Shown here piece by piece: positions 2,477 to 49,395 of a DNA stretch of 64,000 nt. A program made the position numbers and the translations under genes. A model generated the notes under the pieces. The model was not told the origin of the DNA. It worked only from the letters and a program-made list of their open reading frames with translations, and made no database searches. This DNA comes from Flavisolibacter sp. (GTDB taxonomy: Bacteria > Bacteroidota > Bacteroidia > Chitinophagales > Chitinophagaceae), in contig JAQBNG010000127.1 in NCBI GenBank assembly GCA_028288675.1, forward strand, positions 21,654-85,653, written 5' to 3'. Every line of letters starts with the position of its first letter. Position 1 is the first letter of the stretch.

Positions 2477-3463
2477 TTATGTTAATGGAGCGGCTATGTT
2501 TTCGGCCTTTTTATCTTTTAGCAGAAATACAGAAGCAGGGTAATAAGGCTCTCCAAGTAAATGCACCTGTATGGGATCTGTAACTCCTTTCATGGTTAGT
2601 AAAGCAGATGGGTAATCTTTGGTTTCGGCTTGTTTTAAAACATCATTCGAAAGAAGAAAACTATTATTCAAATCTTTGGTAGCCGATTGAATTCGCGATG
2701 CGATATTAACCGGCAAACCCATTACCGTTAAATTGTTATTGATACCCAGACCTACGTTACCTACAATTACATTACCGCAGTGCATGCCAATACCAATTTG
2801 AAAGCGGTGGCGAAAATACTTTTGAACATAGTCTCTATTAAAATTTTCCAGCTCTTTAAAAATAGCGAAGCCGGATTCAATAGCATTCATTGCAGCCGTT
2901 TCAGGACTGCACCGTAAACCAAAAACAGCGTACAAACCATCGCCCGCAGTTTCGATTATTTTACCACCGCCGGCCTCAATACAGGTTCTGCATATGCCAA
3001 ACAGCTTTCGCAAAATATGTATCACATCAAAGGCAAGGTAAGCTTCCATAAAAGGGGTAAAATCCCTGATGTCTAAAAAGAAAAGCACGAGCTCTTTTTC
3101 TTCTCCTAGTTCACTAAAGTCATTTTCGCTTTGGTCTATGTATAAGTCAACATCCGATACGTCGCGAATGATCCTGTGAATTGATACAGGGGCATTTTCT
3201 ACAAAAGTTTGACAGGCTAACCGAACATTCGATGGGAAAGTAAGTTGCTCCCTTAACGCAGCTTCCTTATCATTAATAGCGCTTAAGTGTTCCTTGCCTT
3301 TGCTTACCAATATCCGGCAGGTAGAGCATCGTGCATGGCCGCCGCAGGTATGATAATGTGGTATGCCGGCTTTTAAAGCCGCGTCTAAAACAGATTCCCC
3401 TTCCTCTATTGGAATTGTTTTTTCGCCTATAAATTCAATATGAAATGTTTTGTGCGCTGTCAT
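2477..3463 (-). CDS. [2Fe-2S] ferredoxin domain fused to a class III adenylate/guanylate cyclase
   Basis: CGGHARCSTC...RLACQ ferredoxin cysteines. Cyclase motifs FLDIRDFT, ETAGDG, GIGMHCG, VNIASR. Confidence 0.9.
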   Translation of the reverse strand: MTAHKTFHIEFIGEKTIPIEEGESVLDAALKAGIPHYHTCGGHARCSTCRILVSKGKEHLSAINDKEAALREQLTFPSNVRLACQTFVENAPVSIHRIIRDVSDVDLYIDQSENDFSELGEEKELVLFFLDIRDFTPFMEAYLAFDVIHILRKLFGICRTCIEAGGGKIIETAGDGLYAVFGLRCSPETAAMNAIESGFAIFKELENFNRDYVQKYFRHRFQIGIGMHCGNVIVGNVGLGINNNLTVMGLPVNIASRIQSATKDLNNSFLLSNDVLKQAETKDYPSALLTMKGVTDPIQVHLLGEPYYPASVFLLKDKKAENIAAPLT

Positions 3464-3661: not shown

Positions 3662-4765
3662 CTAATTAAAATCGTCCAACGTTTTATCTTCCCGTAAACC
3701 CTGGAAAGACGGGTGGCGCATCAAGCCATCTTTTGTCCGCTCTGTATATTTCACCTCGCAAACAAAATGGGGCTTTACCCACATAGTTGGCGCCCCGGTA
3801 TCTGGCTTAATGTTAAAAGGGCACTCGGAAGTAAACAAAGAATTCATTTTTTTAAAGATTTCCTTCTGCGTCCGTGCCGTAAAACCTGTTCCTACCTGGC
3901 CAATAAATTCAATGCCTTTCTCTGTGGGAACTCCAAGCACCAATGATGAAAAAAGGCGGTCGGTGTCTTTGTTTTTAGTATAGCCGCAAATGATTGCTTC
4001 ATGCCTTTCTTCTACTTTTATTTTGCACCAGTTTGTGGTACGGTAACCGGCTTGATAAATAGAATCTGCCCTTTTTGCCACAATACCTTCGAGGTTACCA
4101 CTTTTTGCAGCTTCAAAGAATTGCTTTCCATATTCATCAATTGAATCGCTGAACCGTATCAAACCTCCATCGGGAATTATCTTTTTAAGAATTTCTTTTC
4201 GCTGGTGCAATGGTTTCCTGGTCAGGTCAATTCCTTCCAGCCAAAGCAAATCAAACAGGTAATAAAACAAGTGGCCGTCTCCTGTGCGGCTCCATTGCTG
4301 AAGCCCTCCAAAATCAGGTTTCCCCTCGCTATCCAATACTACTATCTCGCCATCAACTACGGCATTTACCGGCCAGCCCTGTAGGGCCTCATACACCGGA
4401 AAAAATTTACGGTCGAAAGAGTTATTGTTTCTTGAACGGATAGAAACATCACCATCACTTAAATAAGATAAAGCCCTGTAGCCATCCCACTTAATTTCAA
4501 ATTGCCAGGCCGCATCATTAAACGGTTCTTCAATTACAGAAGCCAGCATGGGTTTTAGATTCGTTGGCATCGCCGATAATTCCCCGCCTTTAAAATCACG
4601 CAGGATAAAGTCAACAACGGTTTGAAGATCTTTACGGATCCCTGTTGCAATAACAAGGCTGCCGGGCTCTTTTGTAGTAGTAGCTCTTTTTTTTCCGGGT
4701 AAAGTTTTTAAACTTTTTCCGTTGAATAAAGTGTTGCTGTTGGAAGGCTTTTTTTGTACACTCAT
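3662..4765 (-). CDS. ligD: ATP-dependent DNA ligase, stand-alone LigD ligase plus OB domains (NHEJ type)
   Basis: LKPMLA, EIKWDGYRA (KxDG), DGEIV, FDLLWL, EGIVAKR, WCKIK, MRHPSFQGLREDK. No polymerase or phosphoesterase domain. Confidence 0.85.
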   Translation of the reverse strand: MSVQKKPSNSNTLFNGKSLKTLPGKKRATTTKEPGSLVIATGIRKDLQTVVDFILRDFKGGELSAMPTNLKPMLASVIEEPFNDAAWQFEIKWDGYRALSYLSDGDVSIRSRNNNSFDRKFFPVYEALQGWPVNAVVDGEIVVLDSEGKPDFGGLQQWSRTGDGHLFYYLFDLLWLEGIDLTRKPLHQRKEILKKIIPDGGLIRFSDSIDEYGKQFFEAAKSGNLEGIVAKRADSIYQAGYRTTNWCKIKVEERHEAIICGYTKNKDTDRLFSSLVLGVPTEKGIEFIGQVGTGFTARTQKEIFKKMNSLFTSECPFNIKPDTGAPTMWVKPHFVCEVKYTERTKDGLMRHPSFQGLREDKTLDDFN

Positions 4766-5061
4766 ACAAACACCGCCTCCAATTATATGCCTATGCCAGT
4801 GCGCTTTTTTAAGCGATACGCATAAACGGTTGAGCTTTAAATAGTTTGCAATTTATACACAGGATATACAGGGGAAAGCGGGAAAATGTGAATAATGCAG
4901 CTAAGTAATTAAAAGTCAATCCGTATATAATTTTTGTTGAATAGATAACGGCTGCCCTAATTGTAAGCTTATATTTTGGGCGTATCCCGGGGCGGGGCGG
5001 GCTATCCGCTTCAATCTTTTTGTACCGGTGCGGATACAAAAAGGATTTCTGCTTCTATCCC

Positions 5062-6378
5062 TTACGCAACAGCCGGCCCACCTGGATGGTTAGAATGGGC
5101 TGGCAGCAAAATTAAAAACCGGGCACCCTCCCCTTCTTTGCTATGTGCGGCAATTAGCCCATTGTGCTTCTCAACAATTTTTTTAGTGATGGCAAGGCCG
5201 ATGCCGGTTCCTTCGTAAGTTTCTTTTGAATGCAGGCGCTCGAAAAGCGAAAAGATTTTAGCCGCGTATTTTTCATCAAACCCGATGCCGTTGTCAGAGA
5301 TAGTAAGAAGGCAAAAAGCGCCTTCAGGATCTTCTTCGCTGTCGAATGATTTATCTCGTACCAGCTTTGCGGTTATGTCGATAATTGATGTCTTTTCTTT
5401 TCCTGCAAACTTCAGGGAGTTTGACAAAAGGTTTTGAAACATCTGGCGTATTTGTCCGCGGTTTACATATAAACAGGGTAGCTCGCCCACGTTAATCACC
5501 GCTTTTTTCTCAGCTATAAATAAATCAAAATCATCTAGTAATTCTTTTATCAACACATTCAAATCAATACATTCAAAAGGGTTATCGTTAGCCGATAGTT
5601 TGGAGTAATTAAGTACATCAATTATCAGCGCTTTCATACGGCCGGCCGAATAAATGATCTTCTCTAAATATTTTTTCGATTCGGGTGTTAGCTGCGCTCC
5701 GCCTCTGTCGTTTAGCAGGTTGCTGAACAATTGGATCTTTCGTAGCGGCTCCTGCAGATCATGCGATGCCACGGAAGCGAATTGCTGCAGATCGTGGTTG
5801 CTTAATTCAAGTGCATGATTAATTTCTGCCAACTGTTTGTTATTGGAGCTGAGTTGCTGCTGCACTTTTTTTTGGGCTGTCAGATCGGTAAGAATAATAC
5901 TTAGCGAAACCCCTTCCTCTAACGCTAATTTGGTAAGTGATAATTGCACCGGTGTAAAATGATCGCCAGCGGTTAATAACACTTCGCCTTTGCAATCCTG
6001 GGTCCAGCATCTTTCAAAAAGAGCCTGGTAATCATCTACATTTTCCGGTGCTATAAATTGATGGAAAGGCAAGCTTATTACATTAGACAAAGGCATCTTA
6101 ACCAGGGAAGCAAATTGGGAATTACAATATAAGATCGAACCTTTTGAATTGAGGGTCACCGCGCCTTCGGTCATCTTTTCTATAAAAACCCGAAAGGCCT
6201 GGTCAGCTGATCTGAGCGTATATAATTGGTGACCATTTGTACCTTCCACTACCAGCGCATCTACCTGGCCGGTGCGAATGGCTTCAATAGTTTCGTGCGC
6301 CTCTTGTAACTGCAGCTTTAATTCTTCTATCTCAGCTTGCAGGTCTTCGTTTAATCTTGTCACTGAATCTGTTTTCAT
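5062..6378 (-). CDS. Soluble PAS-domain sensor histidine kinase, last gene of the kai operon
   Basis: PAS region; H-box ASHDLQEPLRKI; N-box QMFQNLLSNSLKF; G1 DNGIGF; G2 GTGIGLAI. No transmembrane segment. The ATG directly abuts the upstream kaiB stop. Confidence 0.92.
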   Translation of the reverse strand: MKTDSVTRLNEDLQAEIEELKLQLQEAHETIEAIRTGQVDALVVEGTNGHQLYTLRSADQAFRVFIEKMTEGAVTLNSKGSILYCNSQFASLVKMPLSNVISLPFHQFIAPENVDDYQALFERCWTQDCKGEVLLTAGDHFTPVQLSLTKLALEEGVSLSIILTDLTAQKKVQQQLSSNNKQLAEINHALELSNHDLQQFASVASHDLQEPLRKIQLFSNLLNDRGGAQLTPESKKYLEKIIYSAGRMKALIIDVLNYSKLSANDNPFECIDLNVLIKELLDDFDLFIAEKKAVINVGELPCLYVNRGQIRQMFQNLLSNSLKFAGKEKTSIIDITAKLVRDKSFDSEEDPEGAFCLLTISDNGIGFDEKYAAKIFSLFERLHSKETYEGTGIGLAITKKIVEKHNGLIAAHSKEGEGARFLILLPAHSNHPGGPAVA

Positions 6379-6705
6379 TTACAACGACAGGCCAAGGCCC
6401 TTTAAAACTTTTTCGGTTTGCGACAGGTCGCCAATCAACCTTCGTTCAGGTAAAGGTTGTTTGCGAATTAGTAATGGCAGCGCAATTATCTGCTCACTTT
6501 GCGCAACTGCGGCCTGCTGATATACATCAATAATTTCCAGCGAATAATTGTTCTGCAAATGCTCCTCACATATCTGCTTTAAATTATTGATGGCACGAAT
6601 GGAATTGGGCGAAGTGCCGGTTACAAATAAGCGAAGAACATAGGCGCCCTCTTTAGGTGGAGAGTTGCCTGCATCATTCAAATCCTGTTCTTCTTTTTTA
6701 CGCAT
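6379..6705 (-). CDS. kaiB: KaiB family protein (second copy)
   Basis: LRLFVTGTSPNSIRAINNL...IIALPLLIRKQPLPERRLIGDLS. Confidence 0.92.
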   Translation of the reverse strand: MRKKEEQDLNDAGNSPPKEGAYVLRLFVTGTSPNSIRAINNLKQICEEHLQNNYSLEIIDVYQQAAVAQSEQIIALPLLIRKQPLPERRLIGDLSQTEKVLKGLGLSL

Positions 6706-6706
6706 G

Positions 6707-7048
6707 TTACTTTTTTACAGGCCTGATGTTCAAGCCTACCAATACTTTTTCCTCGTTGGACAAATCGCCAATTATTTTGCGTATGGGCACAGGCACTTTG
6801 CGCACTAAAGTAGGTATGGCCAATATCTGGTCGCCAGCTGCTAATTGCGGCTTTACCAACAAGTCAATTACTTCCAGTTTGTACTTGTCAACCAAATGCT
6901 CAGCGCAATATTTTTTAAGGTTGTTTATGGCGGCTACTGACTTAGGGGTATTGCCAGCTACATATAAACGCAGCTCCCAAAAATCTTCCTCCATTTTCGC
7001 CGTCTTTTTCCCTTTCGTTACCTTTTTTACTTTACTTTCTTTTACCAT
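6707..7048 (-). CDS. kaiB: KaiB family protein (first copy)
   Basis: [19 protein letters not shown]...[23 protein letters not shown]. Overlaps the kaiC stop by 17 nt. Confidence 0.95.
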
Positions 7049-8759
7049 GATCTGAATTATGCGAAGTTCTTAATTGCGTTAGCTGTTTGCGGTTTTGTTC
7101 CATAATCTCTTTCTTTAAATCTTCCTCCACATATACTTTATTCAACTGGTCCTGCACCGAGTCAAATTCCTCTTGCAAGGAACTAATCTTTGCTTCCAGC
7201 ACCATTCGCTTTCTTTGAATCTCCTTATCTTTTTGGGTAAGCGCATGTGTACGCAATGCGGCACCTGTAGTTTCACTCAATAGCTGTGCCTCACGTGCCG
7301 AGCCAATAAGAACACCCTCCTGCCCCAAATAAACATCCACTAAATCCAGGCCTTTATCTGTAATAATAAATTCACGTACCTGGTTGGAGTGCTTCATTCC
7401 CCGCGACTTCATAATGTACATTCCCCGGTTGCGTTCGCCATTCGATTCTATATCACGTACCTGCAACCACACATCTACCAGCGAGGAAACGCCTTCGTCT
7501 GTTTGCTCGTTTACTACTGTGTTCAAGCTTAAAGCGGTAAACAGTACTGTAATGTTTTCTCCCTGTAAAAAATCAATTAACCGTATAAGAAAAGACTTTA
7601 CCTCGCTTACTGTGCCCACCGTAACCAGGTTGGTGATGGGGTCGAGAATGACGGTGCGGGGCTTAAAGGCTTTTACTTTTTTATGAATAGCGGCAAGGTG
7701 CATTTCCAATCCGTTGAGTGTAGGCCTTGCCGAATGAATTTGCAGCAAGCCGCTCTCAATATGGGTATTAAGGTTAACGCCTATGGATTGCAGGTTCCGG
7801 ACTATTTGCAGTGGCGGTTCTTCAAAAGCGAAATAAATACATCGCTCTTTGCGGAGGCAGGTGGCATTAGCAAAAAATGCGGCAAGGCTTGTTTTACCGG
7901 TACCGGCCGTACCCGAAACCAAAATGGAGCTACCCCTATAAAAGCCCTTGCCGCCAAGCATATTATCCAATGCCGGTATGCCTGATGAAACTTTTTGGGT
8001 AGAAACAATGCCTTGTAATTGCAAGGAGGTAACCGGCAACACCGATATGCCGTCTTCATCAATTAAAAAAGGATATTCATTAGTGCCATGTAAAGAGCCG
8101 CGGTACTTTATTATTCGCAATAAGCGGGTAGAAATTTTATTGGCTACCCGATGGTCTAATAGAATTACACAATCGGAAACGTATTCCTCAAGCCCCTGCC
8201 TTGTTAGCGAGCCCTCGCCTTTTTCGCCGGTAATAATTGCTGTCACCCCTTTCTCCTTTAACCAGCCAAACAAGCGACGAAGTTCGGCCCGCAGAATACC
8301 CAAATTGTTTAGCCCTGCAAAAAGATTTTCAATGGTATCAAGCACCACCCTTTTTGCGCCAATGCTATCAATAGCGTAGCCCAACCTTATAAACAGGCCA
8401 TCTAAATCATACTCGCCGGTTTCTTCAATTTCGGTGCGGTCAATATGCACATGGTCAATGCGAATTTTACTCTCCTTCTGCAGCTTTTTTAAATCAAAGC
8501 CCAATGAGGTTACATTCATTTCCAACTCTTCAGCCTTTTCTTCAAAGGTCATAATTACTCCGGGTTCGCCAAACTCGGTAGCGCCACGAACAATGAATTC
8601 AATAGAGAAAAGAGTTTTGCCCGATCCGGCTTCGCCACAAATAAGCGATGGCCTTCCTTTGGGCAAGCCACCACCGGTTATTTCATCAAGCCCCGATATA
8701 CCGGTAGGCGTTTTAGGTAACGAAGCTTTTAGAGCAGTTTTGTTTGACTTTGAGGGCAT
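7032..8759 (-). CDS. kaiC: Double-domain KaiC ATPase/kinase with a C-terminal coiled-coil extension
   Basis: Two Walker A motifs ([16 protein letters not shown]), catalytic FEE pairs, arginine fingers KYRG and KSRG, phosphosite region VSSLVD. ATG at 8759 preferred over the ORF-track TTG at 8804. Confidence 0.95.
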
Positions 8760-8999
8760 AGTAATAAATTTAAAACAGGCAATAAATATAGAGCTTACCG
8801 TCAAAAAATGTTTCCTATTTATAAAGATGCATAGCCTAAAATTTCAAAAGAAATACATGTATTCATTAACGCCATTTTCCTGCCATTTTTTGTAAAGCGA
8901 TGAACATATGAAACGTGTAGCGATGTGAAAAAACAGGGCATAAGTCGTTGCTACTGTAGCTTTACTTCAATTTTTGGGTACAAGAACTCTGGTAAACTA

Positions 9000-9028
9000 A
9001 CTGGCCCGAACAACATGTTCAGGCCAGT
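9000..9028 (-). terminator. Hairpin downstream of the YciF-like gene, probable terminator
   Basis: ACTGGCC-C-GAACA / TGTTC-A-GGCCAGT stem with one mismatch and a weak U tract. Confidence 0.45.
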
Positions 9029-9049: not shown

Positions 9050-9601
9050 TTAGTCTTCCTCTTGTGCTGCCTCGTAGTTCACATTGTTTTCTGCAATGCC
9101 TGTCAGCAACAGATCGGTTTGTTTTTCTTCTTCCAGGGTGGTGCGCAAAATTTCAGCAACATCATCCAGCCCAAGTGTTATGGCCAATTGTGCTAACCCA
9201 CCGTAAGCAGCAATTTCGTAGTGCTCTACTTTTTGAGCCGATATGATCAGGCCTACATCACGGGTAGCAGTACCGGTTTCGGTTTCTTCAATAATGCCTT
9301 CGCCTTCTTTGGTGATACCTTCAATAGCCTCGCATTTTTTGCCTTTTGCTTTTTCGCCCAATAGTTCAAATACCTGCTCCAGGCGGCCTACCTGGTTAAT
9401 TGTCATTACGCGATGGTCTTCAAAAGCCTGCTTCAACTCGGTGGAGGTGGCCGCTTTTTTCATTTTAGGAAGTGTTTTAGCAATATGTTTTTCTGCATAA
9501 TACACGTCCTTAAGTCCATCAACAAAGAATTCTTTTAGCATAGAGTCGCCGGCGCCTGCGCCAACATTTAGTGCTTTTGATTTTTTTGAGGCTTTTGCCA
9601 T
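9050..9601 (-). CDS. YciE/YciF (DUF892) ferritin-like stress protein
   Basis: LKDVYYAEK, AFEDH, CEAIEGI, AQKVEHYEIAAYG, TLEEEKQTD. Confidence 0.92.
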   Translation of the reverse strand: MAKASKKSKALNVGAGAGDSMLKEFFVDGLKDVYYAEKHIAKTLPKMKKAATSTELKQAFEDHRVMTINQVGRLEQVFELLGEKAKGKKCEAIEGITKEGEGIIEETETGTATRDVGLIISAQKVEHYEIAAYGGLAQLAITLGLDDVAEILRTTLEEEKQTDLLLTGIAENNVNYEAAQEED

Positions 9602-9820
9602 GGTTTTAATTTTTTTAACTACTATAAAAATGGTGTGCCACTATAAATCGTTATAAATCATTGCCTCTTTTTTTAAATAAATTTCTAACTGAGGTATTCT
9701 TTGCACGAAGCCTTTTTAATTACACAAATGGATAGCTTGTCTTAAAAGAAAAAAAGTTTGATTGTTTGTATTCTTTTCTTAAATGACGAGCGGCATGATT
9801 GTTCCTTTTTGAAAAACTAT

Positions 9821-10582
9821 ATGATCGTTAACTACAGTGAAGACGGCTGGGAAGTAATTACGCAACGGGCCCATGGCATATTGGCCGCAGCATTTGCGCT
9901 GCACTGGAAAAAAGCGCAACGCCCTGACCGATGGATGGAAACCCTGCTTGCCATTGCCGAACACGATGATGCTGAAGTGGAACTTGATGGCGAAAACCTC
10001 CTGACCGAAAAGGGTGGTCCACTAAATTTTGACATGAAAGTTTTTGACCTGGCGCACTGCGAAAAACTAAGCCGGCTAACGGTTACCAAGAGCCGCTACA
10101 TTGCTTTGTTGACTTCTATGCATACCGAGTTTTTATACCGCAAGGAGGAGAAAGATAACAGTGAGGCCAAAGCATTTTTAGCGAAGCAACGAACGCTGCA
10201 AACGGCATGGAGAAAAGAATTAAAAATGAGCAAAGAAGAAGCGGAAAAAATTTACGCATTAATGGAATGGTGCGATGCCTGCTCCCTTATTGTTTGCCAG
10301 AAACAAATGCCACCCGAACAAAGAGCGGTCGAAATAAGTCATGGTCCGGATAAGGAAAAATATCGTTTATACCAGCTTAATAAAAACCAATTAACGCTGG
10401 AACCCTGGCCATTTGAAACACCATCATTCAAGGTGCAGTATGAGTCAAGAACAATCAGCCAGCTACAGTTTTCATCATCGCAAGAATTTAGAAAGGCTTT
10501 TTTAGAAGCGCCGGTTAAAGAAACGGAGTGGCAAATTGTACAAAGAAAAACACCGAAGAAACTAAAGATGACAAAAGTGTAG
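9821..10582 (+). CDS. DUF3891-like protein
   Basis: MIV...WEVITQRAHG...AIAEHDD...ALLTSMH metal-binding His/Asp pattern. ATG 9821 preferred over the track start at 9758. Confidence 0.65.
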   Translation: MIVNYSEDGWEVITQRAHGILAAAFALHWKKAQRPDRWMETLLAIAEHDDAEVELDGENLLTEKGGPLNFDMKVFDLAHCEKLSRLTVTKSRYIALLTSMHTEFLYRKEEKDNSEAKAFLAKQRTLQTAWRKELKMSKEEAEKIYALMEWCDACSLIVCQKQMPPEQRAVEISHGPDKEKYRLYQLNKNQLTLEPWPFETPSFKVQYESRTISQLQFSSSQEFRKAFLEAPVKETEWQIVQRKTPKKLKMTKV

Positions 10583-30338: not shown

Positions 30339-31955
30339 TTATTCTGCTTTATAATACAGCAGTACAAAAGGCTGTACCGTATCCATTGAAACCAATTTTT
30401 GCGCAGGGAAAATTTTTAAAACCGCAGAATCCTGCAAATGTGTTGCAAGGAGTAGGCGGCTTCCTTTTTTCATCCATGATAAAGAAGCAGGTTGGCCCGA
30501 AAAGCTATAAGCCGCCTGGCCGTTTACCAAAGCATAACGCCGTAGGCCATTATCTGTAGTCACCAGCGCCCAGCCACCTTCTTTTTTATTCAATACAGTA
30601 AGATTTGAAACAACTTTTTTTACAGGACTGCTTACCCGGTTATAACTTCTTATTTCACCGGCATTTACTGTTTGCTTTATCGTAAAATAAATGCCATGGA
30701 AACATTCAAACACAAACAGTAAAAAAAAGCCGTTCCTTATAATTTTGAAGCCGTTGAATTTGAATACAAAAAGGAACAAGACCAGTTGCAACGCTATCAT
30801 AGGAATTAAAAACGAACGGGCATCGGTTACAAAAGTCCATAAGCCTGCAGCCGATTTATATGAGAACGATTGATAGGTAAGCGACAGGTAAAAGGCAATA
30901 CCGGCAAGTGTAGCCGCAACGGCTGTAATGATGCGGATGATTTTACGCACCGGTCTTTTTCTATAGAGAAGCAAAGTTGCCATTAAAGCTGTAAACAGCA
31001 ATACATCTATTACTCTGAATGCTATCATTATTTTACTGAAAGGAACACGTAAAATCTTTTCTAACTGCACGCCCCAAAAGTTAGTATTGATAAAAGAAGA
31101 ACTGATAAAAGGATATGTGGATAGAAGGTTTTGCGGATAAAATCCTTTAATGGAAACACTGCCGTCGTTTGTTGCCGCAGATGCGTGAAAAGGGGGCAAC
31201 TGCTGTGCAGGAAGAAGAATTAAATAATACGCACTAACCGCGGTAAGTGACAGCAGGAGTAGCAGGCAGGCAAACTGAAGCCAGGCAGCCTTTCTTTTTT
31301 TTTCTATCAGCCAAATAAACAAGGCAGAAAGAAAAACACCAACCAGCGGAGCGTAAATTAGTTTGGTAAGGCACACGCAGCTAATAGAAAGAGCCAGCAA
31401 CAACGTAATAACAAACCGGTTAGGAGATTGTATAAAACGATAGCTGTAATAAATGCTCCATAATGTAAACGCGGCAGCAAAAGTGTCTTTAGGGCCGGCA
31501 TCCAGCTCATGCGGATACAAGAAAAAAGCCGTGCAAAGGATAAATAAATTTGTAAGCCAGGGTTTGGCAAAAACAACCATGGCTACTTTATAGATCGCTG
31601 TAAAAAAGAGCGTCCATCCTAAAAAAGAAAGAAGTAGTTGTGTAATATAGTAAGAGGAGGTAAGCCATAAAAAAGGCGCGGCAAGCAGCGAATATAACGG
31701 CGAATAAACAGCAGGATTATACACCTGTCTTGTAACGCCGTTTTCAATCAGGCTAACAGGTTCAGAAAGTATGCTTGTCTGTCTGAAGCTTTCCGCGAAT
31801 AACAGGTACAAAGATTTATCACCGTCAAGGTTACTATATATCCATGCAATTAAACATTTGGCTACTACTGCAACTGCAATACATAAAAGGCTTACCCGTC
31901 GGGTATTAAAAGCTGATTTTACAAAAGATAACCAGAGGTTTTTTGATGAAAACAT
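30339..31955 (-). CDS. Multi-pass membrane protein, possibly a GT-C-fold glycosyltransferase
   Basis: About 12 hydrophobic segments with an acidic first loop (DGDKSLY) and a soluble C-terminus. Function unconfirmed; the track starts at 32012. Confidence 0.45.
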   Translation of the reverse strand: MFSSKNLWLSFVKSAFNTRRVSLLCIAVAVVAKCLIAWIYSNLDGDKSLYLLFAESFRQTSILSEPVSLIENGVTRQVYNPAVYSPLYSLLAAPFLWLTSSYYITQLLLSFLGWTLFFTAIYKVAMVVFAKPWLTNLFILCTAFFLYPHELDAGPKDTFAAAFTLWSIYYSYRFIQSPNRFVITLLLALSISCVCLTKLIYAPLVGVFLSALFIWLIEKKRKAAWLQFACLLLLLSLTAVSAYYLILLPAQQLPPFHASAATNDGSVSIKGFYPQNLLSTYPFISSSFINTNFWGVQLEKILRVPFSKIMIAFRVIDVLLFTALMATLLLYRKRPVRKIIRIITAVAATLAGIAFYLSLTYQSFSYKSAAGLWTFVTDARSFLIPMIALQLVLFLFVFKFNGFKIIRNGFFLLFVFECFHGIYFTIKQTVNAGEIRSYNRVSSPVKKVVSNLTVLNKKEGGWALVTTDNGLRRYALVNGQAAYSFSGQPASLSWMKKGSRLLLATHLQDSAVLKIFPAQKLVSMDTVQPFVLLYYKAE

Positions 31956-32133
31956 AAACGGGCGAAAGATACTATGAATGAAAGGAAAGAACTGATGGCG
32001 CAGGATGAACAATTAGTTTTTTACAATGCTCCATGCATTAGCTTGTTTATAAAAATAAATATATGCCCTTCACTTTCCCAAGAGCAGTTGTGGAAATGCT
32101 TTATAAAACCATCTTACTCACAAATCAACTTTT

Positions 32134-43226: not shown

Positions 43227-43512
43227 TTTTTATACCAAGCTAAATACTACTATGAAGCTTTACTTGCGTCGCACTCTTGTACGCTTTGTTTGCTATGAAA
43301 CAGTCATACCTAATCTTATAAATAAGGGCTCGGCAAAGGCTATTTATCATAAACCAGTGTACCAGCTTTTACCTTGTACTTCTATAAGGAATTACGCACA
43401 CTTTCATTGTCATTGTTTACCAGCACATCTTTAACAGCAGTGTGGAAATTTCAATTTTTAATCTGCATACTTATTGATGTTGTTGTTCTTTTTTAACCTA
43501 AAAAACACAAAT

Positions 43513-44451
43513 ATGAAAAAGCTAATATTCTCCTGCCTGCTGGTAGGCTTTGTAGTTGCTACCTCGGCACAAAACACTCAAACCGGCACCGGCACCCAGG
43601 GCAGTAACCAAACCACTAATAAAAAAAGTACGGGTAAAAAAGCAAAGAAAGGAACAAAGTCCTCTTCCTCTTCTCACAAGGCAAAAGCCCGAAGCACTTC
43701 CGCAGACAGTACGAACAATGGCCAGTCCTCAACGGATAATTCAGGTATGTCCTCTGGAAATATGAATAATACTAATAGCAACTCCCGAAGTACCCTAAAT
43801 AACGGAACCGGAAATCAAACCGGTAATGGAAGCGGCAATCAGAAGAATACTAATAAAGCAACCAAAAGTTCATCATCTTCCAACCAGGGAAACTCAGGCA
43901 ACGGGTCTAATAATACAAATGGCAATCAATCTTCTTCACAAGGTTCAAACGTATCGGGAACAATGGATACCACGAACCGCATGAGTGGTACCCTGAACAG
44001 CACCAGTACAAATAATGGAATGGGAAACAACGGCACAAGTGGAACAACCGGCGGTTTAACAGATACGAGCAGAACAGGAAACCAGGCCAATACTACATCG
44101 GGTACAGGCACAGATACCAGCGGCATGAATTCAGGTACTTCAGGTACAACTAATAGAAATAACAGTTCTAATAATACTGGCACAAATAATAGCAACAACT
44201 CCAACAATACAACAGGAGGCACAATTAACGACTCTACCGGTACAAGTACTATGAATAATGGAAGTACTACTTCAGGAACTACAGGCAACGGAACTGGGAA
44301 TGCAGATTCTACCGGAAATGGAACTAACAGTGGTACAACAGGTAATGGAAGTCCTAAAATAAAAACAAAGATCAAAACAGCAGATGGTAAAGTCATCAAA
44401 ACAAAAACAAAGAATGGGGAAACTAAAACAAAAACTAAAGGGGGAGAGTAA
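43513..44451 (+). CDS. Secreted Asn/Ser/Thr/Gly-rich low-complexity protein
   Basis: Signal peptide MKKLIFSCLLVGFVVATSA, then about 260 aa nearly free of hydrophobic residues and a Lys/Thr tail. Followed by a strong hairpin. Confidence 0.8.
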   Translation: MKKLIFSCLLVGFVVATSAQNTQTGTGTQGSNQTTNKKSTGKKAKKGTKSSSSSHKAKARSTSADSTNNGQSSTDNSGMSSGNMNNTNSNSRSTLNNGTGNQTGNGSGNQKNTNKATKSSSSSNQGNSGNGSNNTNGNQSSSQGSNVSGTMDTTNRMSGTLNSTSTNNGMGNNGTSGTTGGLTDTSRTGNQANTTSGTGTDTSGMNSGTSGTTNRNNSSNNTGTNNSNNSNNTTGGTINDSTGTSTMNNGSTTSGTTGNGTGNADSTGNGTNSGTTGNGSPKIKTKIKTADGKVIKTKTKNGETKTKTKGGE

Positions 44452-48403: not shown

Positions 48404-48804
48404 AAAAAACGATCAGAGATCGGAGTAATGAAAGAAGCAATTGATAGGGAACTTTGAATTTGAGCGACCAACTCCCTACAGATTCGCTGGAGATAATATC
48501 CATAAAAAAGAAACCCTCAGTTGAGGGTTCTATCTGATCATGCGCTTTTTTGAAGGGAGGTAACTAACGGTTGACGAACCGTAAATTACGACGCCTAAAA
48601 TTGATTTCATGAAGCGCCATACGTTGTAGGATGGTTTGTACGAGCTGCTGTAAATCTGTGCAGCCTGTTTTGCGTACTCAATGTCTCTGTTTTTCATGCA
48701 GGTTATTTTAGTTTGTGGAAAATAGGTGGATAAACTTAGTCATTTACATTGAAATAACGAAGCCTTTGCCTATTTTGTTGTCGAAAACTTTTAATATCCA
48801 CTCT

Positions 48805-49395
48805 ATGAAACTGAAGATCACACAACTTCTATCCGTACTTGCTTTGTCTGCTTTTATCAACCTATCACATGCACAGTTAAAATTGCCTGGCGCCGGCAAC
48901 CCCGATGTGCGCAATGCTTTAGAAAAAGTAATTGCCGATTACCCGAAAGAGTTTGCCAACCTGAAAGGTGAAGTGCTGAACACCAATCCACAAACAGTAG
49001 AGTATGAATCGCTGCTGCCTTTTAAAAGTGCTGAGCATAACACTATTACGGAGTACTCGGGTAAACACCCCGTTTACAGTTGGCAGGCCCTTATGTTTAC
49101 AGCCGAAGAATTTGAAGATGCTGCTAAAAAATACAAAGCCCTGTACCAGCAGCTAAAAGGGATGAACTTAAAGTTGAACAGGGATTATGATTACAGCTTA
49201 TCAGGTGAGTATGATGCACCTGATGAAAGCAAAAAATTTAGTACCACCATTTTTGGCTTATCGCCAAACGCCTCTAATCTTCCTAAAGTAAAAGTGGAAC
49301 TTTCCATGCAATACGAACTACTGGAATGGAAAATTTATTTGCTGGTATATCAAAAAGAAAAAGAAGATAATGAAAGGGGGAGGATAGAGGAATAA
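48805..49395 (+). CDS. Hypothetical exported protein
   Basis: Signal peptide after ATG 48805, followed by a 24-bp hairpin. Confidence 0.7.
   Translation: MKLKITQLLSVLALSAFINLSHAQLKLPGAGNPDVRNALEKVIADYPKEFANLKGEVLNTNPQTVEYESLLPFKSAEHNTITEYSGKHPVYSWQALMFTAEEFEDAAKKYKALYQQLKGMNLKLNRDYDYSLSGEYDAPDESKKFSTTIFGLSPNASNLPKVKVELSMQYELLEWKIYLLVYQKEKEDNERGRIEE

What the first reader, a model, noticed from the sequence alone, without database searches (positions are those of the whole stretch)
5062..8759. KaiA-less kaiC-kaiB-kaiB-histidine kinase operon in a non-photosynthetic Bacteroidota
Seen in sequence: four tightly coupled genes (17-nt overlap, 1-nt gap, stop abutting ATG). KaiC has both ATPase domains intact, an SS phosphosite pair (VSSLVD versus cyanobacterial ST) and a roughly 70-aa coiled-coil tail. 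The two KaiB copies are divergent. The soluble PAS kinase begins with a coiled coil (EELKLQLQEAHETIEAIRTGQVDALVV) rather than a SasA KaiB-like domain. No kaiA and no cognate response regulator are adjacent. Established: KaiBC-only systems with coiled-coil KaiC tails occur outside cyanobacteria, e.g. in Rhodobacter. Inference: an hourglass timer or ATP/ADP sensor that outputs through a dedicated kinase to a stress regulon, with the two KaiBs perhaps dividing the roles of KaiC regulator and kinase adaptor.
Basis: partly seen in the sequence, partly recalled or inferred. Interest (0 to 1): 0.7.

Follow-up and report, generated by a model that had tools for sequence, protein, structure and literature searches.

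The report
KaiC timer with two KaiBs
A soil Bacteroidota bacterium carries a four-gene KaiC–KaiB–KaiB–kinase cassette of the known KaiA-free "hourglass" type; the cassette is widespread, and its two KaiB copies are ancient paralogues predicted to adopt the two alternative KaiB folds.

Summary
Four tightly coupled minus-strand genes (8759–5062) encode KaiC, two KaiBs and a soluble PAS histidine kinase. All four are intact and under purifying selection.

It is not an oddity of this genome. KaiC is 57% identical to the Rhodobacter (Cereibacter) sphaeroides hourglass KaiC. It has the same Ser-Ser phosphosite and the same long C-terminal tail. The gene order kaiC–kaiB–kaiB–effector recurs across Bacteroidota and several other phyla, and kaiC–kaiB–PAS/HK operons are already described in the literature.

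- **Two KaiB clades.** The two KaiBs belong to two old clades fixed by gene position.
- **Two predicted folds.** The first KaiB is predicted in the canonical "ground" fold. The second is predicted in the thioredoxin-like "fold-switched" fold, and it carries charged residues at the two sites whose mutation flips R. sphaeroides KaiB.
- **A Kai-linked effector module.** Only the first ~190 residues of the kinase are conserved between phyla: a helix, the motif AIRxGxVDALVV and a PAS domain. In a pattern-only metagenome scan, 87–92 of 95 testable genes with this motif had kaiB just upstream.

No response regulator lies in the 64 kb. Verdict: a new variant of a known kind, of moderate interest.

The parts
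7032..8759 (-). kaiC (575 aa), KaiC2 class. It has two RecA-like ATPase domains: Walker A at nt 8636–8613 (CI) and aa 283–290 (CII), with catalytic EE pairs at aa 73–74 and 313–314.
   Evidence: Pfam PF06745 twice; NF006799 at 731 bits against cutoff 408. It is 57% identical to C. sphaeroides KaiC. Motifs. dN/dS is 0.074 against L038. A 235-nt soil metatranscriptome contig lies at 7315–7545.
7482..7487 (-). Codons for S425/S426, the Ser-Ser phosphosite pair in GVSSLVD.
   Evidence: They align column for column with the EE of the KaiC-RS S413E/S414E mutant 8FWI and the SS of wild-type 8DBA.
7035..7292 (-). KaiC C-terminal extension (aa 490–575), homologous to the coiled-coil tail of KaiC-RS.
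   Evidence: The phmmer alignment to 8DBA continues to residue 547, whereas cyanobacterial KaiC alignments stop at 489. The coiled-coil/dodecamer function is taken from PMC10076222 and was not tested here.
6707..7048 (-). kaiB-a (113 aa), the canonical clade-A KaiB, predicted in the ground-state fold.
   Evidence: PF07689 E = 1e-24. It is 64% identical to KaiB-RS and sits in clade A with KaiB-RS and cyanobacterial KaiB. The AlphaFold2 C-terminal half is helix-helix-strand at pLDDT 69. Best Foldseek matches are ground-state KaiB crystals at rmsd about 1.0 Å. It has hydrophobic I and V at the switch sites.
6379..6705 (-). kaiB-b (108 aa), the clade-B paralogue, predicted in the thioredoxin-like fold-switched fold.
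   Evidence: PF07689 E = 2e-23. It clusters with all 71 second-position KaiBs. AlphaFold2 gives strand-strand-helix at pLDDT 72. Best Foldseek matches are Legionella KaiB 4KUN, fsKaiB 5JYT/5JWO and KaiC-bound KaiB-RS 8FWJ, with SasA-N lower in the list. E87 and K102 occupy the sites whose I68R and V83D mutations flip KaiB-RS. dN/dS is 0.14.
5062..6378 (-). Soluble sensor histidine kinase (438 aa): N-terminal helix plus motif, PAS, HisKA, HATPase_c.
   Evidence: Pfam. H-box SHDLQEP at aa 205–211 (His206), with N, G1 and G2 boxes intact and no membrane segment. dN/dS is 0.084.
6244..6354 (-). Codons for aa 9–45: amphipathic helix ending in the motif AIRTGQVDALVV, a marker of Kai-linked effectors.
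   Evidence: The motif occurs only in the gene downstream of kaiB in 1.1 Mb of loci. In a pattern-only metagenome scan, 87 of 95 testable occurrences have kaiB directly upstream and 5 more have it nearby. It is present in the C. sphaeroides kinase next to KaiB-RS.
5869..6195 (-). PAS domain (aa 62–170) of the kinase, the second half of the conserved N-terminal module.
   Evidence: PAS_9, PAS and PAS_4 hits. Residues ~10–200 are the only part conserved across phyla, while the output domains vary.
5098..5790 (-). HisKA (aa 197–263) and HATPase_c (aa 309–427) catalytic core.
   Evidence: Pfam; motifs.
8760..9000 (-). Intergenic region upstream of kaiC, the presumed promoter region. A −7-like box TATATTTA lies at 8790–8783.
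   Evidence: A block just upstream of the ATG is conserved with L038. The box differs by one base from the Bacteroidota −7 consensus, which I recalled from memory. No convincing −33 element and no sigma-70-type site were found. This assignment is weak.
9001..9027 (-). Hairpin just after the DUF892 stop codon, a likely terminator that would mark the 5' boundary of the kai operon.
   Evidence: Read from the sequence. The hairpin and its flanks are nearly identical in L038, with differences only in the loop, while the rest of the spacer has diverged.

Best explanation
This is a KaiA-independent, KaiC2-class KaiBC phospho-timer. It most likely works as an hourglass or ATP:ADP sensor like the Cereibacter sphaeroides system, and it is hard-wired to a soluble PAS histidine kinase.

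**Shown by sequence.**
- KaiC has both ATPase sites, the Ser-Ser phosphosite and the long C-terminal tail. In KaiC-RS that tail replaces KaiA by holding the A-loops open.
- The four genes form one conserved, tightly coupled cassette under purifying selection.

**Inferred, step 1.** KaiC autophosphorylates at S425/S426 when ATP is plentiful. KaiB-a is a canonical metamorphic KaiB that rests in the ground fold. It slowly switches fold, binds the CI ring and drives dephosphorylation when ATP:ADP falls.

**Inferred, step 2.** KaiB-b is an ancient paralogue biased to the fold-switched, thioredoxin-like state. It would therefore bind without the hours-long delay. Its role would resemble the free-standing equivalent of the KaiB-like domain of SasA: it either seeds KaiB-a binding or bridges KaiC to the kinase.

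**Inferred, step 3.** The kinase docks through its N-terminal helix–AIRxGxVDALVV–PAS module. The precedent is KidA, whose PAS domains bind fold-switched KaiB. The kinase then changes its autophosphorylation with the KaiC state and signals to an orphan response regulator encoded elsewhere in the genome.
For: **Family assignment.**
- KaiC matches 8DBA at E = 6.5e-185, is 57% identical to KaiC-RS, and its SS aligns with S413/S414 with the tail included.
- It passes NF006799 but fails the cyanobacterial equivalog TIGR02655.
- The hourglass mechanism, tail function and ATP:ADP dependence of KaiBC-RS come from PMC10076222.

**Cassette.**
- kaiC–kaiB–kaiB–effector is present in essentially all Bacteroidota loci among the 80 genomes examined. 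It also occurs in Planctomycetota, Nitrospira, Acidobacteriota, Chloroflexota and Alphaproteobacteria.
- Only these four genes are conserved; the flanks are not.
- dN/dS is 0.07–0.14 for all four genes.
- kaiC RNA was detected in a soil metatranscriptome.

**Division between the KaiBs.**
- A clean two-clade tree follows gene position: 78 of 79 first-position and 71 of 71 second-position KaiBs.
- AlphaFold2 with orthologue-only alignments gives the ground fold for KaiB-a and the fold-switched fold for KaiB-b. Foldseek confirms this.
- At the two sites where I68R and V83D flip KaiB-RS by NMR, first-position KaiBs are hydrophobic in 79 of 79 cases. Second-position KaiBs are mostly E/R/K/Q and K/R/N/Q/T.
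- Both keep the three prolines that limit the switching rate.

**Kinase coupling.**
- Only the N-terminal ~190 aa are conserved, while the outputs vary: HisKA, HisKA_3, HWE, hybrid kinases with a receiver, and PAS-only proteins.
- The motif is almost exclusive to genes just downstream of kaiB.
- The same module sits next to the experimentally studied KaiB-RS.
- KidA PAS domains bind fold-switched KaiB.
Against: - No biochemistry exists for any Bacteroidota Kai protein.
- The AlphaFold2 models have only moderate confidence (pLDDT 69–72). Whether AlphaFold2's choice of KaiB state reflects thermodynamics is disputed: I saw the titles and abstracts of PMC10836070 and 10.1101/2023.11.21.567977 but did not read them.
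- KaiB-b keeps all three switch prolines and the GDLS…KVL motif, so it may still switch fold.
- Single-KaiB cassettes, including C. sphaeroides, carry the same kinase module. KaiB-b therefore cannot be required for kinase docking.
- A distance-matrix co-evolution test did not favour KaiB-b over KaiB-a as the kinase partner: partial r was 0.26 against 0.39.
- No KaiB–kinase gene fusions were found.
- A few cassettes appear to have a KaiC without the tail.
- The direction of signalling, output or input, is not determined by any result here.
Confidence: 0.6

Rival explanations
1. The kinase is an input rather than an output. Its PAS domain senses redox state, oxygen or a metabolite. The kinase then acts on the Kai complex, by binding or by phosphorylation, to set or reset KaiC. 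Output would occur by another route.
For: A redox-input role was proposed for the PAS kinase next to kaiBC in R. sphaeroides (PMC5520375; PMC10931921). The PAS domain is the conserved part of the protein. No cognate response regulator is encoded nearby.
Against: What varies between lineages is the transmitter end: HisKA, HisKA_3, HWE, hybrid kinase with receiver, or none. That pattern is expected if a constant Kai-docking head drives interchangeable outputs. The PAS shows no recognised cofactor signature; I saw no LOV-type NCRFLQ motif by eye. Cyanobacterial precedents (SasA, CikA, KidA) dock on KaiB/KaiC to read its state (and my own knowledge for SasA and CikA).
Confidence: 0.2
2. The cassette is a non-timing stress-response module like Legionella KaiBC. 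KaiC would act as a stress-responsive ATPase or signalling hub with no interval-measuring role. The two KaiBs would simply tune its activity.
For: Legionella KaiBC is implicated in stress response rather than rhythms, and its KaiB crystallised in the fold-switched state. KaiB-b's best structural match is that protein. The host is a non-phototrophic soil bacterium. In this lineage the neighbours are a DUF892 protein and an NHEJ-type ligase, which I take to be stress-associated gene families.
Against: KaiC is far closer to the hourglass KaiC-RS, with its SS site and tail. A canonical ground-state-type KaiB-a with the rate-limiting prolines is conserved more strongly than KaiC itself (mean distance 0.31 against 0.45). 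That argues the slow switch matters. The flanking stress genes are not conserved with the cassette. The two readings are not mutually exclusive.
Confidence: 0.2
3. The second kaiB is a redundant or decaying tandem duplicate with no distinct function.
For: It evolves about 2.4 times faster than kaiB-a (mean distance 0.75 against 0.31). It is absent from some lineages.
Against: It forms its own clade across at least five phyla, always in second position. It has 24 invariant columns among 100 orthologues and a dN/dS of 0.14. The two-KaiB form is the majority: 52 of 69 metagenome loci with enough upstream sequence.
Confidence: 0.03

Closest known systems
Cereibacter (Rhodobacter) sphaeroides KaiBC hourglass (KaiC-RS/KaiB-RS; PDB 8DBA, 8FWI, 8FWJ; plasmid pB kaiC–kaiB–HWE kinase)
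   Same: KaiC is 57% identical, with the SS phosphosite at the same columns and a homologous C-terminal tail. There is no KaiA. The gene order is kaiC then kaiB. The downstream kinase starts with the same helix–AIRxGDVDALVV–PAS module.
   Different: C. sphaeroides has a single KaiB, of clade A. Its kinase core is HWE type with a second PAS. The kinase was not discussed in the reconstitution paper, which has no mention of "histidine kinase".
Rhodopseudomonas palustris kaiC–kaiB–PAS/HK operon (proto-circadian timer)
   Same: A KaiA-less kaiC–kaiB–PAS/HK operon, predicted to run from a single promoter (PMC4794148). It is the only relative with an in vivo fitness phenotype.
   Different: It has one KaiB and the host is a phototroph. 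I did not examine its sequences here.
Cyanobacterial KaiABC oscillator with SasA output kinase
   Same: A double-domain KaiC, a metamorphic KaiB and a histidine kinase that reads the clock. SasA's N-terminal domain has the same thioredoxin-like fold as the one predicted for KaiB-b (hits 1T4Y and 6X61).
   Different: The window system has no KaiA and an SS rather than ST site. It falls below the cyanobacterial equivalog cutoffs for KaiC and both KaiBs. Its kinase has no fused KaiB-like domain; a separate KaiB-b gene sits immediately upstream of it instead.
Legionella pneumophila KaiB (Lpp1115, PDB 4KUN) and KaiB-TV-4 (8UBH): KaiBs that rest in the fold-switched state
   Same: They are the best structural matches to the KaiB-b model (TM about 0.8). 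They set the precedent that some KaiB lineages favour the fold-switched state.
   Different: Neither has been described as the second member of a ground-type/FS-type pair in one operon. By sequence, the KaiB-b clade profile scores cyanobacterial KaiBs higher than Lpp1115.
KidA (S. elongatus multi-PAS protein)
   Same: N-terminal PAS domains bind fold-switched KaiB directly and tune the clock (PMC9478674). This is the closest functional analogue for the helix–PAS head of the kinase.
   Different: KidA has four PAS domains with GGDEF/EAL output, and the paper describes no linkage of its gene to kai genes. No sequence relationship to the window module was tested.

Membership tests
KaiC2-class KaiA-independent KaiBC system (R. 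sphaeroides type) | Double RecA-like KaiC with Walker A and catalytic glutamates in both CI and CII | tested here: met
   PF06745 matched twice. GEAGSGKT at 42, GTAGTGKT at 283, and FEE at 72 and 312.
KaiC2-class KaiA-independent KaiBC system (R. sphaeroides type) | Ser-Ser phosphosite pair in place of the cyanobacterial Ser-Thr | tested here: met
   GVSSLVD aligns with GLSSLMD of 8DBA and GLEELMD of the S413E/S414E mutant 8FWI. The class definition is from PMC10076222.
KaiC2-class KaiA-independent KaiBC system (R. sphaeroides type) | C-terminal extension of about 50 aa that forms a coiled coil and a dodecamer | tested here: inconclusive
   The extension is present and aligns with the KaiC-RS tail to residue 547. 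Coiled-coil and dodecamer formation were not tested; both structure-prediction jobs went to the KaiBs.
KaiC2-class KaiA-independent KaiBC system (R. sphaeroides type) | kaiB adjacent to kaiC and no kaiA | tested here: met
   Two kaiB genes lie directly downstream. None of the flanking genes is kaiA. KaiA is confined to Cyanobacteria according to PMC5520375. The whole window was not scanned with a KaiA model.
KaiC2-class KaiA-independent KaiBC system (R. sphaeroides type) | KaiB- and ATP:ADP-dependent phosphorylation/dephosphorylation (hourglass behaviour) | not testable with these tools
   This needs reconstitution with purified proteins.
Cyanobacterial KaiABC circadian oscillator | KaiA present; KaiC and KaiB reach the cyanobacterial equivalog models | tested here: not met
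   TIGR02655 scores 343 bits against cutoff 546. TIGR02654 scores 93 and 83 bits against cutoff 145. NF006798 scores 97 and 86 against cutoff 110. No adjacent kaiA.
SasA-type clock output kinase | N-terminal KaiB-like thioredoxin-fold domain fused to a HisKA kinase | tested here: not met
   The kinase N-terminus is helix plus PAS. NF006800 matches only the core (aa 173–429), at 84 bits against cutoff 342. No KaiB–kinase fusions were found in any locus.
Two-component sensor histidine kinase (HisKA class) | H-box histidine and N, G1, G2 boxes of the ATP-binding domain | tested here: met
   SHDLQEP (H206), LLSNSLKF, DNGIG and GTGIGL. PF00512 and PF02518. The cognate regulator is not identified: there is no receiver domain in 64 kb.
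Metamorphic (ground-state-resting) KaiB | C-terminal half in helix-helix-strand topology; hydrophobic residues at the switch sites; three conserved prolines | tested here: met
   This applies to KaiB-a only and is a prediction: the AlphaFold2 model and Foldseek matches to ground-state crystals, I and V at the switch sites, and the prolines present.
Fold-switched-state-resting KaiB (Legionella Lpp1115 / KaiB-TV-4 type) | Thioredoxin-like strand-strand-helix C-terminal half as the dominant state | tested here: inconclusive
   For KaiB-b, the AlphaFold2 model (pLDDT 72) and Foldseek support it. So do E87 and K102 at the sites of the fold-flipping mutations. Populations can only be settled by NMR or CD.

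The most novel reading that the evidence does not exclude
The common form of the KaiA-less Kai system would be a four-part device, not the three-part one studied in Rhodobacter. Its parts would be:
- KaiC;
- a slow, metamorphic KaiB (clade A);
- a KaiB paralogue locked or biased in the fold-switched state (clade B), acting as a free-standing SasA-like adaptor or as a seed for cooperative KaiB loading;
- an effector carrying a dedicated Kai-docking head, the helix–AIRxGxVDALVV–PAS module.

Evolution would have grafted this head onto HisKA, HisKA_3, HWE and hybrid kinases and onto PAS-only proteins. It would then be a general, previously unnamed output adaptor of non-cyanobacterial Kai systems.
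Probability: 0.3. Interest if true: 0.75.

Novelty: new variant of a known kind. Interest (0 to 1): 0.5.

Why it matters
KaiBC systems outside cyanobacteria are widespread, yet only two have been examined functionally, both from purple bacteria with a single KaiB. How they connect to gene expression is unknown.

If the clade-A/clade-B split reflects a ground-state and a fold-switched KaiB working together, it would be a natural experiment. Evolution would have separated the two conformations of a metamorphic protein into two genes. It would also explain how a timer without KaiA or SasA recruits its output.

The helix–AIRxGxVDALVV–PAS module gives a concrete and easily testable handle on the missing output (or input) link. 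It is present in the Cereibacter sphaeroides system, for which structures and assays already exist.

For this window itself, the finding is an ordinary, intact member of a common cassette.

Tried and rejected
- **Co-evolution test.** I compared distance matrices across 53 loci, controlling for KaiC, to ask which KaiB partners the kinase head. Both gave positive partial correlations (0.39 for KaiB-a, 0.26 for KaiB-b), so the test does not discriminate.
- **Gene fusions.** I looked for KaiB–effector fusions as evidence for a "split SasA". None were found in 200 loci.
- **Conserved neighbours.** I looked for a response regulator or other conserved neighbour. The flanks are conserved only with the nearest relative (L038), and there is no receiver domain in the window. 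Receivers appear only as fused domains of hybrid kinases outside Bacteroidota.
- **Promoters and terminators.** The sigma-70-type scan found no more sites than in shuffled sequence. The Bacteroidota-type search gave only a one-mismatch −7 box without a −33 element.
- **Flavo-1 RNA.** It sits at the 3' end of the kinase gene and might have belonged to the cassette. It does not: it is absent from the 10 nearest loci and from all 1.68 Mb held.
- **Legionella KaiB placement.** I tried to place it in the two-clade tree, but its sequence was not among the printed alignments.
- **My own prior.** From memory I expected the "GEVDALVV" motif to be a generic PAS N-cap. The metagenome scan rejected that idea.
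- **RNA evidence.** It is limited to one short metatranscriptome contig in kaiC. Operon structure could not be shown.

Full report
**1.

Four genes lie head to tail on the minus strand:
- kaiC, 8759–7032
- kaiB-a, 7048–6707
- kaiB-b, 6705–6379
- a histidine kinase, 6378–5062

The junctions are a 17-nt overlap, a 1-nt gap, and a TAA stop directly followed by ATG.

KaiC matches Pfam KaiC twice. It matches NCBIfam NF006799 at 731 bits against a cutoff of 408. It stays below the cyanobacterial equivalog TIGR02655 (343 against 546). Both KaiBs match Pfam KaiB but fall below the cyanobacterial KaiB equivalogs.

KaiC has Walker A motifs at residues 42 and 283 and FEE catalytic pairs at 72 and 312. 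The kinase has intact H, N, G1 and G2 boxes and no membrane segment. The two KaiBs are 51% identical.

The adjacent genes are DUF892, DUF3891, a LigD-type ligase domain and a ferredoxin–nucleotide cyclase fusion. No receiver domain was detected anywhere in the 64 kb, using three receiver queries.

**2. Origin of the sequence**

The sequence comes from a soil metagenome. The nearest cassette is in a Flavisolibacter MAG (family Chitinophagaceae). Its proteins are 89% (KaiC), 85% (KaiB-a), 81% (KaiB-b) and 83% (kinase) identical. It is the only locus that also shares the flanking genes.

The rest of the window is ordinary chromosome: FeoB, Rho, a class II aminoacyl-tRNA synthetase, PspC, an SNF2 helicase and outer-membrane β-barrel (receptor-like) proteins.

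One soil metatranscriptome from the same study contains a 235-nt contig inside kaiC at ≥99% identity. This is weak evidence of expression.

**3. Which Kai system it is**

The best solved relative of KaiC is Rhodobacter (Cereibacter) sphaeroides KaiC, PDB 8DBA, at E = 6.5e-185 and 57% identity. The alignment runs into the C-terminal tail, to residue 547. Alignments to cyanobacterial KaiC stop at residue 489.

The SS of GVSSLVD falls on the exact columns that are EE in the S413E/S414E mutant 8FWI.

Pitsawong et al. (PMC10076222) define this KaiC2 subgroup by the Ser-Ser pair and a tail of about 50 aa. In KaiC-RS the tail forms a coiled coil that joins two hexamers and keeps the A-loops exposed. 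This allows KaiA-independent autophosphorylation. KaiB accelerates CI ATPase activity and dephosphorylation according to the ATP:ADP ratio, giving an hourglass.

Much of the finding is already published:
- Schmelling et al. (PMC5520375) noted that Bacteroidetes encode only KaiB2/KaiC2-type proteins.
- Ma et al. (PMC4794148) describe a kaiC–kaiB–PAS/HK operon in R. palustris and R. sphaeroides.
- De Luca et al. (PMC3164672) noted that, outside cyanobacteria, kaiC–kaiB is nearly always followed by a kinase or a GGDEF/EAL protein.

The core of the finding is therefore a new member of a known kind.

**4. The cassette is widespread and self-contained**

A genome scan returned 576 KaiC relatives, and I examined the best 80 loci.

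Essentially every Bacteroidota locus has kaiC, kaiB, kaiB and a downstream effector in that order. These include Chitinophagaceae, Sphingobacteriaceae, Spirosoma, Dyadobacter, Larkinella, Hymenobacter, Flavobacterium and Bacteroidales. The same order occurs in MAGs of Planctomycetota, Nitrospira, Pyrinomonadaceae, Limnocylindria and Proteobacteria. Some Acidobacteriota and Gemmataceae have a single kaiB.

Nothing outside the four genes is conserved. All four genes are under purifying selection, with dN/dS of 0.07–0.14 against L038.

**5. The two KaiBs are ancient paralogues**

A neighbour-joining tree of 155 KaiBs splits cleanly by gene position:
- 78 of 79 first-position copies group with the window's KaiB-a, KaiB-RS and cyanobacterial KaiB.
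- All 71 second-position copies group with KaiB-b.

KaiB-a is the slowest-evolving protein of the cassette and KaiB-b evolves about 2.4 times faster. Mean distances are 0.31 for KaiB-a, 0.45 for KaiC, 0.75 for KaiB-b and 1.13 for the kinase head.

Three lines of evidence suggest the paralogues prefer different KaiB folds.

*AlphaFold2 models.* I used orthologue-only alignments of 100 sequences each, which is close to the approach validated in PMC10808063.
- KaiB-a is predicted with a helix-helix-strand C-terminal half (pLDDT 69).
- KaiB-b is predicted with strand-strand-helix (pLDDT 72).
- These are the ground and fold-switched topologies as defined for KaiB-RS.

*Foldseek matches.*
- The KaiB-a model matches ground-state KaiB crystals (1WWJ, 2QKE, 1R5P, 4KSO) at about 1.0 Å.
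- The KaiB-b model matches Legionella KaiB 4KUN, fold-switch-stabilised KaiB (5JYT, 5JWO), KaiC-bound KaiB-RS (8FWJ), KaiB-TV-4 (8UBH) and, lower in the list, the SasA N-domain.

*Switch residues.* The mutations I68R, V83D and N84A flip KaiB-RS to the fold-switched state by NMR. After correcting a +1 numbering offset, the two hydrophobic sites behave as follows:
- First-position KaiBs are hydrophobic at both sites in 79 of 79 cases.
- Second-position KaiBs are mostly E/R/K/Q (50 of 72) and K/R/N/Q/T (55 of 72).
- The window has I and V in KaiB-a, and E87 and K102 in KaiB-b.

Both paralogues keep the three prolines whose isomerisation limits the switching rate.

Caveats apply. Model confidence is moderate, the meaning of AlphaFold2's KaiB state choice is debated (titles seen, papers not read), and no populations have been measured.

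**6. The kinase's conserved part is its head**

Across phyla, only residues ~10–200 of the downstream protein align. This region is an amphipathic helix ending in AIRxGxVDALVV, followed by a PAS domain.

The C-terminal output varies:
- HisKA plus HATPase, as here
- an extra PAS, in Sphingobacteriaceae
- HisKA_3, in Acidobacteriota
- HWE, in C. sphaeroides
- hybrid kinases with a receiver, in Planctomycetota, Nitrospira, Pyrinomonadaceae and Pararhizobium
- PAS-only proteins of about 240 aa, in Bacteroidales

Within the 1.1 Mb of genome loci, the motif occurs only in the Kai-linked gene.

To remove the selection bias of those loci, I scanned metagenome contigs with a degenerate DNA pattern for the motif alone. 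The outcome for the 120 hits:

| Category | Count |
|---|---|
| In frame in an ORF | 99 |
| Of these, enough upstream sequence to judge | 95 |
| kaiB directly upstream | 87 |
| kaiB within about 500 nt, or masked by an over-extended ORF | 5 |
| No kaiB | 3 |

Among loci with at least 1 kb upstream of the motif, 52 of 69 have two KaiBs: 46 in the order A then B, 5 classed AA and 1 AAA.

The head is therefore a near-exclusive marker of Kai-linked effectors.

It is also present in the model system. On C. sphaeroides 2.4.1 plasmid pB, kaiC is followed by WP_002725098.1. That is the very KaiB-RS used in the structural and NMR papers. Next comes an HWE kinase that begins …EETLKAIRQGDVDALVV… followed by PAS.

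A Pararhizobium plasmid carries the full two-KaiB form with a hybrid kinase.

I found no paper in the library that describes either the paired KaiB clades or this head module. The library is incomplete, so this is not proof of novelty.

**7. Mechanism**

The best-supported reading is a KaiC2-type hourglass or energy sensor coupled to a signalling protein through a dedicated docking head.
- KaiB-a would be the slow metamorphic regulator.
- KaiB-b would be a paralogue that is always competent to bind.
- KidA provides a precedent: its PAS domains bind fold-switched KaiB.
- SasA provides a precedent for a thioredoxin-fold KaiB-like domain occupying the KaiB site on KaiC (hit 6X61).

Points against a strict "adaptor" role for KaiB-b:
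- Single-KaiB cassettes keep the same head.
- The co-evolution test does not discriminate between the two KaiBs.
- No fusions exist.

Whether the kinase is an output or an input remains open, as does whether the module measures time or only reports energy or stress state. The "stress regulon" idea has no support beyond neighbours that are specific to this lineage.

**8. Operon boundaries**

A hairpin at 9001–9027, just after the DUF892 stop codon, is nearly identical in L038 apart from its loop, while the rest of the spacer has diverged. A short block before the kaiC ATG is also conserved and contains a −7-like TATATTTA box.

Downstream, a Flavo-1 RNA motif spans 5072–4991 on the same strand and overlaps the kinase stop codon. 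It scores 53.6 bits against a gathering score of 42. It is absent from the related loci, and the spacer is about 85 nt shorter in L038. It is a lineage-specific addition and not part of the cassette.

**9. Verdict**

The finding as written is an ordinary member of the published KaiC2/KaiB2 class. The cassette's conserved ground-type/fold-switched-type KaiB pair and its Kai-specific effector head make it a new variant worth a bench test. I score interest at 0.5.

Noticed in passing
window 4991-5072 (-): A Flavo-1 RNA motif (Rfam RF01705, 53.6 bits against gathering score 42) lies on the same strand as the kinase gene and overlaps its stop codon. It is the only Rfam hit in the 64 kb. It is absent downstream of the Kai cassette in the 10 nearest loci, and the spacer is about 85 nt shorter in the closest relative. 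It therefore looks like a lineage-specific insertion.
   Followed up: partly
window 1-64000: No response-regulator receiver domain was detected in the entire 64-kb window with three receiver queries, so the Kai-linked kinase is an orphan here.
   Followed up: yes
window 2477-3463 (-): An unusual fusion of an N-terminal 2Fe-2S ferredoxin domain with a class III adenylate/guanylate cyclase catalytic domain (328 aa). It lies two genes downstream of the kinase, and among the loci examined a homologue was found only in the closest relative, L038.
   Followed up: no
window 3662-4765 (-) and 4780-4960: A stand-alone LigD-type ATP-dependent ligase domain reaches the NHEJ ligase model TIGR02779 (271 bits against 228). 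Its upstream region contains long blocks identical to L038, such as CCTGTGTATAAAT and ATTTAAAGCTCAAC, which suggests a conserved promoter or operator.
   Followed up: no
window 9050-9601 (-) and 9758-10582 (+): A DUF892 protein sits immediately upstream of kaiC and a divergent DUF3891 gene lies beyond it. The DUF892 gene has a 231-nt contig in the soil metatranscriptome, at higher depth than kaiC.
   Followed up: partly
L046:7323-8051, L060:8447-9199, L068:8502-9224, L080:6110-6817: In Bacteroidales-type MAGs the Kai-linked effector is only about 240 aa. It has the helix–motif–PAS head plus about 70 unassigned C-terminal residues and no kinase domain.
   Followed up: partly
L037, L048, L056 (KaiC ORFs of 499-501 aa): Three Chitinophagaceae MAG loci appear to encode a KaiC without the C-terminal tail but keep both KaiBs and the effector. 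This could be real tail loss or an assembly or ORF-calling artefact.
   Followed up: no
L093, L158, L160: These are the only three metagenome occurrences of the AIRxGxVDAxVV motif with no kaiB in the upstream sequence available. They may be rare stand-alone copies of the module.
   Followed up: no
window 30339-32012 (-), 43474-44451 (+), 48715-49395 (+): Three sizeable ORFs (557, 325 and 226 aa) have no Pfam match at E ≤ 1e-5.
   Followed up: no
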